Shown here in pieces: positions 16,859 to 18,616 of a stretch of DNA of 64,000 bases. This DNA comes from Escherichia coli O127:H6 str. E2348/69. GTDB lineage: Bacteria; Pseudomonadota; Gammaproteobacteria; Enterobacterales; Enterobacteriaceae. The notes below the pieces were generated by a model, which did not search any database, was not told where the DNA came from, and was given only the letters and a program-made list of their open reading frames with translations. A program made the translations under genes and the position numbers. The stretch lies in the NCBI RefSeq assembly GCF_000026545.1, contig NC_011601.1; one strand, 5' to 3'. Positions within the stretch are counted from its first letter, which is position 1. Each line of letters opens with the position of its first letter.

Positions 16859-17449
16859 ATGTTACAAAACCCAATTCATCTGCGTCTGGAGCGCCTGGAA
16901 AGCTGGCAGCACGTCACTTTTATGGCCTGCTTATGCGAACGTATGTACCCCAATTACGCCGTATTCTGTCAGCAAACCGGCTTCGGCGATGGGCAGATTT
17001 ACCGCCGCATTCTCGATCTCATTTGGGAAACGCTGACCGTCAAAGACGCAAAAGTAAATTTCGACAGCCAACTGGAGAAATTTGAAGAAGCGATTCCTTC
17101 AGCCGACGATTTCGATCTGTACGGCGTTTATCCGGCAATCGATGCTTGCGTGGCGTTAAGTGAACTGGTCCATTCGCGTTTAAGTGGCGAAACGCTCGAA
17201 CACGCGGTGGAAGTGAGTAAGACTTCCATCACGACCGTGGCGATGCTGGAAATGACTCAGGCTGGTCGCGAAATGAGCGATGAAGAGCTCAAAGAAAACC
17301 CAGCTGTAGAGCAAGAATGGGACATTCAGTGGGAAATATTCCGACTTTTAGCTGAGTGCGAAGAACGCGATATCGAGCTGATAAAAGGCCTTAGGGCAGA
17401 CCTGCGTGAGGCGGGTGAGAGCAATATTGGTATAATTTTTCAGCAATAA
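16859..17449 (+). CDS. yjaG: DUF416 family protein
   Basis: 196-aa ORF MLQNPIHLRLERLESWQHVTFMACLCERMYPNYAVFCQQTGFGDGQIYRR... recognised as YjaG. Confidence 0.88.
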   Translation: MLQNPIHLRLERLESWQHVTFMACLCERMYPNYAVFCQQTGFGDGQIYRRILDLIWETLTVKDAKVNFDSQLEKFEEAIPSADDFDLYGVYPAIDACVALSELVHSRLSGETLEHAVEVSKTSITTVAMLEMTQAGREMSDEELKENPAVEQEWDIQWEIFRLLAECEERDIELIKGLRADLREAGESNIGIIFQQ

Positions 17450-17635
17450 GACCAGAAAACGTGATTTAACGCCTGATTTGTCGTACCTGGAGTCTTCCCT
17501 TTCGCCCCCCGTCTGGTCTACATTTGGGGGGCGAAAAAAAGTGGCTATCGGTGCGTGTATGCAGGAGAGTGCTATTCTGGCATTTCCGTCGCACTCGATG
17601 CTTAGCAAGCGATAAACACATTGTAAGGATAACTT

Positions 17636-17908
17636 ATGAACAAGACTCAACTGATTGATGTAATTGCAGAGAAAGCAGAACTGTCCAAAACCCAGGCTAA
17701 AGCTGCTCTGGAGTCCACTCTGGCTGCAATTACTGAGTCTCTGAAAGAAGGCGATGCTGTACAACTGGTTGGTTTCGGTACCTTCAAAGTGAACCACCGC
17801 GCTGAGCGTACTGGCCGCAACCCGCAGACCGGTAAAGAAATCAAAATTGCCGCAGCTAACGTACCGGCATTTGTTTCTGGCAAGGCACTGAAAGACGCAG
17901 TTAAGTAA
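17636..17908 (+). CDS. hupA: DNA-binding protein HU-alpha
   Basis: 90-aa [93 protein letters not shown]. Confidence 0.97.
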
Positions 17909-17914
17909 GATTGC

Positions 17915-18616
17915 GTGGCAGTGAACAGTTTTAACGAAGGGGTGGTTTCACCCCTTTTGTCTTTCTGGCGTCGATCATTGATGCTGGCTGGCGCTCTGTT
18001 TCTCACTGCCTGTAGTCACAACTCTTCACTTCCTCCCTTTACCGCCAGTGGATTTGCTGAAGACCAGGGCGCGGTACGCATCTGGCGAAAAGACAGCGGC
18101 GATAATGTGCATCTTCTTGCCGTGTTTAGCCCGTGGCGCAGTGGCGATACCACGACGCGAGAGTATCGCTGGCAGGGCGATAACCTCACGCTCATCAATA
18201 TCAATGTTTACAGCAAACCCCCGGTGAATATTCGCGCGCGTTTTGACGATCGAGGCGATCTGAGCTTTATGCAACGCGAATCCGATGGGGAAAAGCAGCA
18301 GCTTTCTAACGACCAAATCGATTTATACCGTTATCGTGCTGATCAGATCCGCCAGATTAGCGATGCCTTACGTCAGGGGAGAGTCGTGCTGCGCCAGGGG
18401 CGCTGGCATGCGATGGAGCAGACTGTGACCACCTGCGAAGGGCAAACCATTAAACCTGATTTAGATTCGCAGGCGATAGCGCATATCGAGCGCCGCCAGA
18501 GCCGCTCTTCTGTTGATGTCAGCGTGGCATGGCTGGAAGCGCCCGAAGGCTCGCAATTACTGTTGGTGGCAAACTCTGATTTCTGTCGCTGGCAACCCAA
18601 CGAGAAAACGTTCTGA
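17915..18616 (+). CDS. yjaH: DUF1481 family lipoprotein
   Basis: ORF with signal peptide and lipobox (…WRRSLMLAGALFLTACS); start uncertain: GTG 17915/17921 overlap the hupA terminator, an ATG at 17981 lies downstream of it. Confidence 0.8.
   Translation: MAVNSFNEGVVSPLLSFWRRSLMLAGALFLTACSHNSSLPPFTASGFAEDQGAVRIWRKDSGDNVHLLAVFSPWRSGDTTTREYRWQGDNLTLININVYSKPPVNIRARFDDRGDLSFMQRESDGEKQQLSNDQIDLYRYRADQIRQISDALRQGRVVLRQGRWHAMEQTVTTCEGQTIKPDLDSQAIAHIERRQSRSSVDVSVAWLEAPEGSQLLLVANSDFCRWQPNEKTF
17934..17960 (+). terminator. rho-independent terminator after hupA
   Basis: Hairpin GAAGGGGTG-GTTTC-ACCCCTT followed by ttgtcttt. Confidence 0.7.

What the first reader, a model, noticed from the sequence alone, without database searches (positions are those of the whole stretch)
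17496..17536. 11-bp perfect inverted repeat with a 15-nt loop between yjaG and hupA
CCCTTTCGCCCCCC-gtctggtctacattt-GGGGGGCGAAAAAAAG. The stem is GC-rich, but the run after it on the plus strand is A-rich rather than T-rich, so it is not a canonical terminator for yjaG. On the minus strand the T-run precedes the stem. It could be a protein-binding palindrome in the hupA promoter region or an RNA structure in the hupA 5' region.
Basis: seen in the sequence. Interest (0 to 1): 0.2.

Follow-up and report, generated by a model that had tools for sequence, protein, structure and literature searches.

The report
Palindrome is the hupA core promoter
The 11-bp inverted repeat between yjaG and hupA is real, but it lies on the already-mapped promoter of the HU-alpha gene (its loop holds the -10 box and transcription starts inside its right arm), and it is conserved as promoter DNA rather than as a hairpin, so it is ordinary.

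Summary
The arms are TTTCGCCCCCC (17500-17510) and GGGGGGCGAAA (17526-17536), perfect, with a 15-nt loop. About 0.3 such repeats are expected per 64 kb. The window is E. coli hemE-nfi-yjaG-hupA.

The repeat is not an independent element. The published hupA start site lies 105 nt upstream of the ATG (Kohno 1990 and Claret 1996, re-mapped by Mendoza-Vargas 2009). That puts +1 at window 17531, inside the right arm. The loop then carries the -10 hexamer TACATT (17519-17524). The left arm lies in the 18-bp spacer next to the -35 (TTCCCT; TTCACA in other genera). The G-run is the discriminator.

hupA mRNA therefore lacks the left arm and cannot form the hairpin. Across 86 Enterobacterales loci the -10, G-run and 5' UTR are nearly invariant. 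The outer left arm varies freely and G-run changes are never compensated, so there is no covariation (79.0% of cells paired, 78.8% in shuffles). The hairpin has no U-tract, no match to any Rfam family, and no Term-seq 3' end.

Best reading: a chance consequence of a C-rich spacer facing a G-rich discriminator in a known sigma-70 promoter. Interest is low. A small residual possibility is a cruciform or HU-sensing role.

The parts
16859..17449 (+). yjaG (DUF416) coding sequence, the upstream neighbour
   Evidence: ORF list. RefSeq annotation of identical E. coli sequence.
17495..17500 (+). -35 hexamer of hupAp: TTCCCT in E. coli (3/6), TTCACA (5/6) in Kluyvera, Pluralibacter, Dickeya, Erwinia and Pantoea
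   Evidence: Position follows from the mapped +1 and an 18-bp spacer. CTTC (17494-17497) is invariant in 35 non-redundant sequences. The scanner calls TTCACA-18-TACATT at the orthologous place in L033 and L082.
17500..17510 (+). Left arm of the inverted repeat (TTTCGCCCCCC), at -31..-21 of hupAp. It covers the last base of the -35 hexamer and the first ten bases of the spacer.
   Evidence: The outer five bases vary freely between species, while the C-run is at least 90% conserved.
17501..17518 (+). 18-bp spacer of hupAp
   Evidence: Derived from the -35 and -10 assignment.
17511..17525 (+). 'Loop' of the repeat (GTCTGGTCTACATTT), at -20..-6 of hupAp
   Evidence: CTGGTCTACATTTG is found exactly once in 85 of the 86 related loci; the exception is a truncated contig.
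17519..17524 (+). -10 hexamer TACATT (-12..-7)
   Evidence: It ends 7 nt upstream of the published start site (PMC2760140). Invariant in all aligned sequences. Called by the scanner in orthologues.
17525..17530 (+). Discriminator TGGGGG (-6..-1)
   Evidence: [quoted passage not shown] Variation at 17527-17529 (G to A/T) is never compensated in the C-run.
17526..17536 (+). Right arm of the inverted repeat (GGGGGGCGAAA), at -5..+6 of hupAp
   Evidence: with position relative to +1.
17531..17531 (+). hupA transcription start (+1, G; MG1655 coordinate 4,200,176), accurate to about 1 nt
   Evidence: PMC2760140 Table 1 lists hupA p1 at -105, both 'known' (Kohno 1990; Claret 1996) and by DMTSS, with no additional TSS flagged. 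Coordinate offset.
17531..17635 (+). hupA 5' UTR (105 nt), beginning GCGAAAAAAAG. It contains only the 3' six bases of the right arm.
   Evidence: Nearly invariant across Enterobacterales. The leading bases are unpaired in the predicted fold.
17636..17908 (+). hupA (HU-alpha) coding sequence
17936..17960 (+). hupA intrinsic terminator, the real terminator of this unit, given for contrast
   Evidence: Scanner: 9-bp stem, 4-nt loop, T-run. Strong Term-seq 3' end at 4,200,605 = window 17960 (PMC7815308 supplement).

Best explanation
The inverted repeat is the double-stranded core of the known sigma-70 promoter hupAp, not a hairpin-forming element. RNA polymerase reads it asymmetrically. The -35 (TTCCCT, 17495-17500) abuts the left arm, and the left arm's C-run fills the first part of an 18-bp spacer. 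The 'loop' carries the -10 hexamer TACATT (17519-17524). The right arm's G-run is the discriminator, and transcription starts at G17531 inside that arm, followed by a conserved A7 tract at +4..+10. The perfect 11-bp symmetry arises because a C6 run in the spacer faces a G6 run in the discriminator, and because in Escherichia and some Enterobacter the variable bases next to the -35 happen to read TTTCG. Shown: the repeat, its position relative to the published start site, conservation as sequence without covariation, and the absence of terminator features. Inferred: that the G-run acts as a discriminator. From general knowledge, a non-template G two bases after the -10 favours sigma region 1.2 contacts, and G/C-rich discriminators make promoter opening depend on supercoiling. 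Also inferred: that the C-run is conserved for a spacer property rather than for pairing.
For: 1) Start site: hupA p1 is at -105 from the ATG by earlier S1/primer-extension work and by independent DMTSS mapping, with no second TSS flagged (PMC2760140). That gives window 17531, with TACATT ending exactly 7 nt upstream. 2) A fragment spanning 17460-17633 drives lacZ as 'hupAp' (PMC6047807). 3) In orthologous intergenic regions the scanner's only promoter call is TTCACA-18-TACATT at the same place. 4) In 86 loci from three families of Enterobacterales the -10/loop core is identical, and everything from the C-run to the ATG is nearly invariant. 5) No covariation: 79.0% of cells paired against 78.8% in shuffles (251/500 reach it), and the covariation score is reached by 138/500. 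In the 58 unique full intergenic rows, G17528 is A or T in 23 while C17508 never changes, and all 11 pairs are kept in only 7. 6) The E. coli hairpin is the most stable in the set (-24.4 kcal/mol); others range up to -7.6. 7) The real mRNA lacks the left arm, and its first 10 nt are predicted unpaired.
Against: The start site is taken from the literature (one table citing three studies). I could not re-verify it in genome-wide 5'-end tables, because the supplements were not held in searchable form. The E. coli promoter scores only 7/12 against consensus and the scanner misses it, which is unusual for a very highly expressed gene. The C6 run in the spacer is conserved more strongly than spacers usually are, and I have no tested reason for this, so selection on some C-run/G-run relationship cannot be excluded. 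The expected physiological signature of a G/C-rich discriminator is not clear-cut. hupA mRNA rises 1.6-1.7-fold at 5-10 min of isoleucine starvation and falls to 0.41-fold only by 80 min (PMC7066862 supplement).
Confidence: 0.85

Rival explanations
1. DNA cruciform or structure-sensing switch at the promoter. Under high negative supercoiling the repeat extrudes, occluding or exposing the -10. HU, which prefers cruciform and distorted DNA, binds it and autoregulates hupA.
For: The repeat is perfect and stable as single-stranded DNA on both strands (-14.0 and -13.3 kcal/mol, z -4.8 and -3.9). Its centre is the easily melted -10 region. It is fixed in E. coli: 5,357 of 5,388 genomes are identical over 60 bp. 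From general knowledge, HU binds four-way junctions tightly, and Kohno et al. 1990 reported autogenous control of hupA and hupB. C-run and G-run are both conserved.
Against: A 15-nt spacer between the arms makes extrusion costly. In most genera the stem has an uncompensated C-A or C-T mismatch in the middle of the G/C run or loses its outer third, although the promoter and HU are conserved there. No experiment in the literature I could search links the repeat to HU.
Confidence: 0.05
2. RNA hairpin at the 3' end of yjaG transcripts: a U-less terminator, pause site or 3'-stabilising stem-loop that insulates hupA from read-through.
For: The repeat lies 51 nt after the yjaG stop codon and would be fully transcribed in any read-through RNA. 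It folds to -24.8 kcal/mol. No other terminator-like site lies between yjaG and hupA.
Against: There is no U-tract (an A7 run follows the stem) and the loop is 15 nt. No 3' end is listed between yjaG and 4,200,253 in the Term-seq tables, and there is no yjaG entry at all (PMC7815308 supplement). There is no covariation, and the stem is weakened in most species. No Rfam family fits; the only hit is a meaningless miRNA match at E = 2.7.
Confidence: 0.05
3. Palindromic operator for an unidentified dimeric regulator overlapping the hupA core promoter.
For: It has perfect dyad symmetry centred on the -10 region, a typical place for a repressor. hupA is regulated by several factors: CRP and Fis (Claret 1996, cited in PMC2760140 and PMC9221221), and an RstA effect (PMC6047807).
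Against: The half-sites are not co-conserved: the outer left arm varies while the right arm is fixed. The centre-to-centre distance is 26 bp, about 2.5 helical turns, so the halves lie on opposite faces. Runs of C6 and G6 resemble no operator I know. The symmetry is perfect in only 7 of 58 unique intergenic sequences.
Confidence: 0.04
4. Structured element of the hupA 5' UTR.
For: The 5' UTR is long (105 nt) and extremely conserved.
Against: The mapped +1 (17531) lies inside the right arm, so the left arm is absent from the mRNA. No additional upstream TSS was flagged for hupA in that study.
Confidence: 0.01

Closest known systems
hupAp, the single sigma-70 promoter of E. coli hupA (Kohno et al. 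1990; Claret & Rouviere-Yaniv 1996; RegulonDB entry re-mapped by Mendoza-Vargas et al. 2009)
   Same: Same locus and the same start site (-105 from the ATG). The repeat spans -31..+6 of this promoter.
   Different: None in identity. The dyad symmetry of the core promoter is not mentioned in any paper I could search, but the evidence here gives it no separate function.
Promoters with G/C-rich discriminators (stable-RNA and fis-type 'stringent', supercoiling-sensitive promoters)
   Same: A G/C-rich stretch between the -10 and +1, a sub-optimal -35, and a growth-phase-regulated, Fis-activated gene (PMC9221221).
   Different: The spacer is 18 bp rather than 16. The discriminator is a non-template G-run, which from general knowledge favours sigma 1.2 contacts, rather than the C-containing rrn type. 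hupA mRNA is not shut off early in amino-acid starvation.
Rho-independent (intrinsic) terminators
   Same: A G/C-rich perfect stem just downstream of a stop codon.
   Different: 15-nt loop, no U-tract on either strand, no mapped 3' end, and not called by the scanner. The real hupA terminator at 17936-17960 shows what one looks like here.
REP/BIME and ERIC extragenic palindromes
   Same: An intergenic, G/C-rich palindrome in an enterobacterial genome.
   Different: It is single-copy, with a median of 1 place per E. coli genome. The ERIC-like insertion seen in Dickeya, by contrast, has a median of 7 places per genome.

Membership tests
sigma-70 core promoter (hupAp) | Experimentally mapped transcription start a few bases downstream of a -10 hexamer | tested here: met
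   The published +1 at -105 (PMC2760140) maps to 17531. TACATT ends at 17524, 7 nt upstream. The mapping itself comes from the literature and was not repeated here.
sigma-70 core promoter (hupAp) | -10 hexamer with A at position 2 and T at position 6; -35 hexamer 16-18 bp upstream | tested here: met
   TACATT scores 4/6 and has both key bases. The -35 is TTCCCT (3/6) in E. coli, below the scanner's threshold, but TTCACA (5/6) with an 18-bp spacer in orthologues, where the scanner calls it.
sigma-70 core promoter (hupAp) | Promoter activity of the DNA fragment | not testable with these tools
   Literature only: the 17460-17633 fragment fused to lacZ is active (PMC6047807).
sigma-70 core promoter (hupAp) | Conservation of promoter elements in orthologous regions | tested here: met
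   The -10/loop core is identical in 85 of 86 loci. CTTC of the -35 and the G-run/+1 region are conserved.
Intrinsic terminator | Short loop (3-8 nt) and a U-tract directly after a G/C-rich stem | tested here: not met
   The loop is 15 nt. The stem is followed by A7 on + and by AAAGGGAAG on -. The scanner does not call it.
Intrinsic terminator | RNA 3' end mapped at the site | tested here: not met
   The Term-seq tables list 4,200,253, 4,200,389 and 4,200,605, but nothing at 4,200,181-4,200,195 (PMC7815308 supplement). Low yjaG expression could hide a weak end.
Conserved cis-regulatory RNA structure | Both arms present in the transcript it regulates | tested here: not met
   hupA mRNA starts at 17531, inside the right arm.
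Conserved cis-regulatory RNA structure | Base pairing maintained by compensatory change | tested here: not met
   The count of structure pairs gives 79.0% paired against 78.8% shuffled. Covariation is 0.064 against 0.060 (138/500). Five of 11 pairs depart only through unpaired cells.
Conserved cis-regulatory RNA structure | Match to a curated RNA family | tested here: not met
   The Rfam 15 E-value scan of 17300-18000 gives only a mir-4716 hit at 16.2 bits against a gathering score of 76, E = 2.7.
Palindromic operator of a dimeric regulator | Both half-sites conserved together | tested here: not met
   The outer left arm varies (pair 17502/17534 intact in 28% of unique rows, pair 17500/17536 in 50%) while the right arm is fixed.
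Palindromic operator of a dimeric regulator | A cognate protein that binds it | not testable with these tools
   No binding data were found.
REP/BIME-type repeated palindromes | Many dispersed copies per genome | tested here: not met
   Median of 1 place per genome among 5,388 E. coli genomes.

The most novel reading that the evidence does not exclude
The perfect dyad that wraps the -10 element of hupAp is a supercoil-driven cruciform or hairpin switch. HU, a protein that prefers cruciform and distorted DNA, senses it, giving the nucleoid protein a structural read-out of chromosome superhelicity at its own promoter. The repeat is sharpened to perfection in the Escherichia lineage.
Probability: 0.04. 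Interest if true: 0.6.

Novelty: already known. Interest (0 to 1): 0.08.

Why it matters
As it stands it matters little. The finding re-discovers the mapped hupA promoter. It shows that a statistically striking palindrome can be a by-product of promoter composition, here a C-rich spacer facing a G-rich discriminator. It is a useful caution for sequence-only scans: an inverted repeat in an intergenic region should be placed against known start sites before it is read as RNA structure or as an operator. If the small residual possibility were true, that the dyad extrudes and is sensed by HU, it would give a direct structural mechanism for the autogenous and supercoiling-linked control of a major nucleoid protein.

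Tried and rejected
1) Terminator reading: rejected by the scanner, by the sequence (no U-tract, 15-nt loop) and by the Term-seq tables.
2) Known RNA family: the Rfam E-value scan found nothing meaningful.
3) TGcTATTCT (17571-17578) as an extended -10 promoter. I first considered it from the E. coli sequence, then rejected it because the key A is T in most species and in one E. coli strain, and because the published +1 is about 50 nt upstream.
4) Independent confirmation of the TSS in genome-wide tables failed. These were Kim 2012, Ettwiller 2016 and Yan 2018. The held supplements contain neither the gene name nor the coordinates. Thomason 2015 and Sanchez-Vazquez 2019 are not held.
5) Checking the '-105' convention with pgi in this window failed, because the window is not collinear with MG1655 at that distance. 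I relied instead on table entries whose UTR lengths I know (galE P1 -26, ompF -110).
6) Stringent-control prediction: searches for hupA together with discriminator or ppGpp found nothing direct. The starvation RNA-seq shows a transient rise and not an immediate fall, so I do not claim rrn-like stringent control.
7) CRP or Fis sites within the repeat: I could not place a convincing CRP half-site pair in or near the arms by eye, and Claret 1996 is not held. This is left unresolved.
8) Repeated-element reading (REP/BIME): rejected, because the sequence is single-copy.

Full report
WHAT IS THERE. The window is the Escherichia coli hemE-nfi-yjaG-hupA-yjaH-zraP region. The ORFs and a 451-bp query around the finding match 5,419 complete E. 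coli genomes at 99% identity or more, annotated yjaG and hupA. Window coordinates equal MG1655 coordinates minus 4,182,645 in this stretch. yjaG ends at 17449 and the hupA ATG is at 17636, leaving a 186-bp intergenic region. The inverted repeat is exactly as described. The arms are 17500-17510 (TTTCGCCCCCC) and 17526-17536 (GGGGGGCGAAA), 11 bp and perfect, separated by 15 nt. The pair outside them (C17499/A17537) is a mismatch.

IS IT MORE THAN CHANCE. Yes, as a sequence feature. The window holds six perfect inverted repeats of at least 11 bp with 3-20-nt loops, against a mean of 0.3 in 30 first-order Markov simulations. The stretch folds far better than shuffles as RNA (-24.8 kcal/mol on + and -25.6 on -; z -3.4 and -4.1). 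The same holds as DNA (-14.0 and -13.3 kcal/mol; z -4.8 and -3.9). Statistical oddity is not evidence of function, so the remaining sections ask what occupies these bases.

WHAT OCCUPIES THESE BASES. Table 1 of Mendoza-Vargas et al. 2009 (PMC2760140) lists hupA promoter p1 at -105 from the start codon. That value is given both as the previously known site (citing Kohno 1990 and Claret 1996) and as the authors' own directed mapping. It is a 'perfect match', and it lacks the asterisk the authors use when additional start sites were seen. Other rows of that table agree with 5'-UTR lengths I know (galE P1 -26, ompF -110), so -105 means a 105-nt leader. Hence +1 = 17636 - 105 = 17531, a G inside the right arm.

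With that anchor the anatomy follows.
- TACATT (17519-17524), in the middle of the 'loop', is the -10 hexamer at -12..-7. It has the key A at position 2 and T at position 6.
- TGGGGG (17525-17530) is the discriminator.
- The right arm spans -5..+6.
- The A7 run after it is +4..+10 of the mRNA.
- The left arm spans -31..-21, which is the last base of the -35 hexamer plus the first ten bases of an 18-bp spacer.
- The -35 hexamer is TTCCCT (17495-17500).

A fragment covering 17460-17633 has been cloned as 'the hupA promoter' and drives lacZ (PMC6047807).

COMPARATIVE EVIDENCE. I retrieved the orthologous yjaG-hupA intergenic region from 80 species of Enterobacteriaceae. I added six more from Cronobacter, Atlantibacter, Shimwellia, Dickeya, Erwinia and Pantoea. 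The region is 185-188 bp in nearly all of them. From the C-run to the hupA ATG it is almost invariant. The core CTGGTCTACATTTG, which contains the -10, is present exactly once in 85 of the 86 loci; the exception is a truncated contig.

In Kluyvera, Pluralibacter, Dickeya, Erwinia and Pantoea the -35 position reads TTCACA (5/6). There the promoter scanner's only call in the intergenic region is TTCACA-18-TACATT, at precisely the place orthologous to the E. coli repeat. The E. coli version (3/6 + 4/6) falls below the scanner's threshold, which is why one search found nothing.

IS THE PAIRING CONSERVED. No. Among 58 unique intergenic sequences, all 11 pairs are kept in 7. The outer left arm varies freely (TTTCG, TTCCG, ATCTG, ATTAG and others) against a fixed right arm. 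Pair 17502/17534 is intact in 28% of rows and pair 17500/17536 in 50%. In the G-run, position 17528 is A or T in 23 of 58 rows while its partner C17508 never changes, which puts a mismatch in the middle of the G/C stem.

On 35 non-redundant sequences, the formal count gives 79.0% of cells paired against 78.8% in column shuffles (251 of 500 shuffles reach it). The covariation score is 0.064 against 0.060 (138 of 500). Five of the 11 pairs depart from pairing only through unpaired cells. The slid controls do give lower pairing (44-65%). That is expected when the structure is derived from one of the sequences, and when a conserved C-run faces a conserved G-run. Predicted hairpin stability runs from -24.4 kcal/mol in E. 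coli, the extreme of the set, to -7.6. The perfect dyad is therefore a lineage peculiarity of Escherichia and a few Enterobacter. Within E. coli it is fixed: 5,357 of 5,388 genomes are identical over 60 bp.

WHAT IT IS NOT.
- It is not a terminator. The loop is 15 nt, no U-tract follows on either strand, and the scanner does not call it, whereas the scanner does call the genuine hupA terminator at 17936-17957. The Term-seq tables of Adams et al. 2021 list 3' ends at 4,200,253, 4,200,389 and 4,200,605 (the last being that terminator, window 17960) but none at the repeat, and no yjaG entry.
- It is not a known RNA family.
- It is not a hupA 5'-UTR structure. The mRNA begins inside the right arm, and in the real leader the remaining bases GCGAAAAAAA are predicted to be unpaired.
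- It is not a dispersed palindromic repeat, because it is single-copy.
- It is not a convincing symmetric operator. The two halves are not conserved together, and their centres are 26 bp apart, on opposite faces of the helix.

HOW IT MOST LIKELY WORKS. It works as ordinary promoter DNA, read asymmetrically by RNA polymerase holoenzyme.

Shown: the positions of -35, spacer, -10, discriminator and +1 relative to a published start site, and their conservation.

Inferred from established knowledge of sigma-70 promoters: the non-template G-run immediately after the -10 acts as a discriminator. A G two bases downstream of the -10 is the base preferred by sigma region 1.2 (Haugen et al. 2006, from memory). 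G/C-rich discriminators make bubble extension, and hence promoter output, sensitive to negative supercoiling (reviewed in PMC9221221). This could offset the weak -35 and -10 hexamers in a very highly expressed, Fis-activated gene.

I do not claim rrn-like stringent control. In spike-in-normalised RNA-seq, hupA mRNA rises 1.6- and 1.7-fold at 5 and 10 min of isoleucine starvation. It then falls to 0.70- and 0.41-fold at 40 and 80 min, while hupB falls monotonically (PMC7066862, Data Sheet 1).

The strong conservation of the C6 run inside the spacer is the one thing this account does not explain. It leaves a small space for a DNA-structural role.

RIVALS. The most interesting rival is supercoil-driven cruciform extrusion sensed by HU. 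HU prefers four-way junctions, and Kohno 1990 reported that hupA is autogenously controlled; both points are from memory. The long central spacer and the uncompensated mismatches in most genera argue against it, and I give it about 5%. A U-less RNA hairpin for yjaG read-through transcripts (about 5%) and an unknown palindromic operator (about 4%) are not excluded, but each lacks positive evidence.

COMPARISON WITH WHAT IS KNOWN, AND VERDICT. The feature coincides with hupAp, a promoter mapped in 1990 and 1996 and re-mapped in 2009. None of the papers I could search mentions its dyad symmetry. However, the evidence here assigns each part of the dyad to a standard promoter element and finds no selection on pairing. 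The finding is therefore already known as a promoter and ordinary as a palindrome. Interest is low.

LIMITS. The start site rests on the literature, and my attempts to see it in genome-wide 5'-end supplements failed. The CRP and Fis sites of Claret 1996 could not be placed. Taxa more distant than Dickeya, Erwinia and Pantoea were not sampled.

Noticed in passing
window 17531-17635 (hupA 5' UTR); also L001-L087: The whole 105-nt hupA leader is almost invariant across three families of Enterobacterales, which is more conserved than the neighbouring yjaG 3' end. Its predicted fold is nevertheless unremarkable (z -1.2). Adams 2021 lists a minor 3' end inside it at 4,200,253 = window 17608. This suggests an undescribed post-transcriptional function for the leader.
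   Followed up: partly
L082 (Dickeya fangzhongdai), about 1920-2046: A 127-bp insertion splits the otherwise conserved hupA 5' UTR. It is a dispersed repeat with a median of 7 copies per E. coli genome at 60-87% identity. By recall it is ERIC/IRU-like. The flanking UTR sequence stays conserved on both sides.
   Followed up: partly
window 17456-17481: A conserved box lies directly after the yjaG stop codon: AAAACGTGAyTTA...CCTGAwTTGT, with two TGATTT direct repeats 12 bp apart, at about -75..-50 of hupAp. It is a candidate upstream activator (CRP or Fis) or UP-element region. I could not assign it.
   Followed up: no
window 17495-17500 versus L033, L082, L083, L084: The E. coli -35 hexamer is TTCCCT (3/6), while Kluyvera, Dickeya, Erwinia and Pantoea have TTCACA (5/6). 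The Escherichia lineage carries a weaker -35 together with the most perfect dyad.
   Followed up: partly
window 17571-17578: TGcTATTCT looks like an extended -10 element inside the 5' UTR in E. coli. The key A is T in most species and in E. coli strain SCPM-O-B-8794 (L002), so it is probably not a conserved promoter.
   Followed up: partly
window 17534-17540: A conserved A7 tract lies at +4..+10 of the hupA transcript, immediately after the start site. Homopolymer runs this close to +1 can support transcript slippage in other genes. This was not examined.
   Followed up: no
hupA and hupB expression data (PMC7066862 supplement): During valine-induced isoleucine starvation, hupA mRNA rises transiently (1.6-1.7-fold at 5-10 min) before falling. 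hupB mRNA holds for the first 10 min (1.02- and 0.88-fold) and then falls to 0.37- and 0.21-fold at 40 and 80 min, with no rise. The two HU subunit genes respond differently.
   Followed up: partly
window 17660-17669 / 17724-17733: A second perfect inverted repeat (10 bp, GTAATTGCAG/CTGCAATTAC, 54 nt apart) lies inside the hupA coding sequence. Adams 2021 lists an internal 3' end at 4,200,389 = window 17744, just downstream of it.
   Followed up: no
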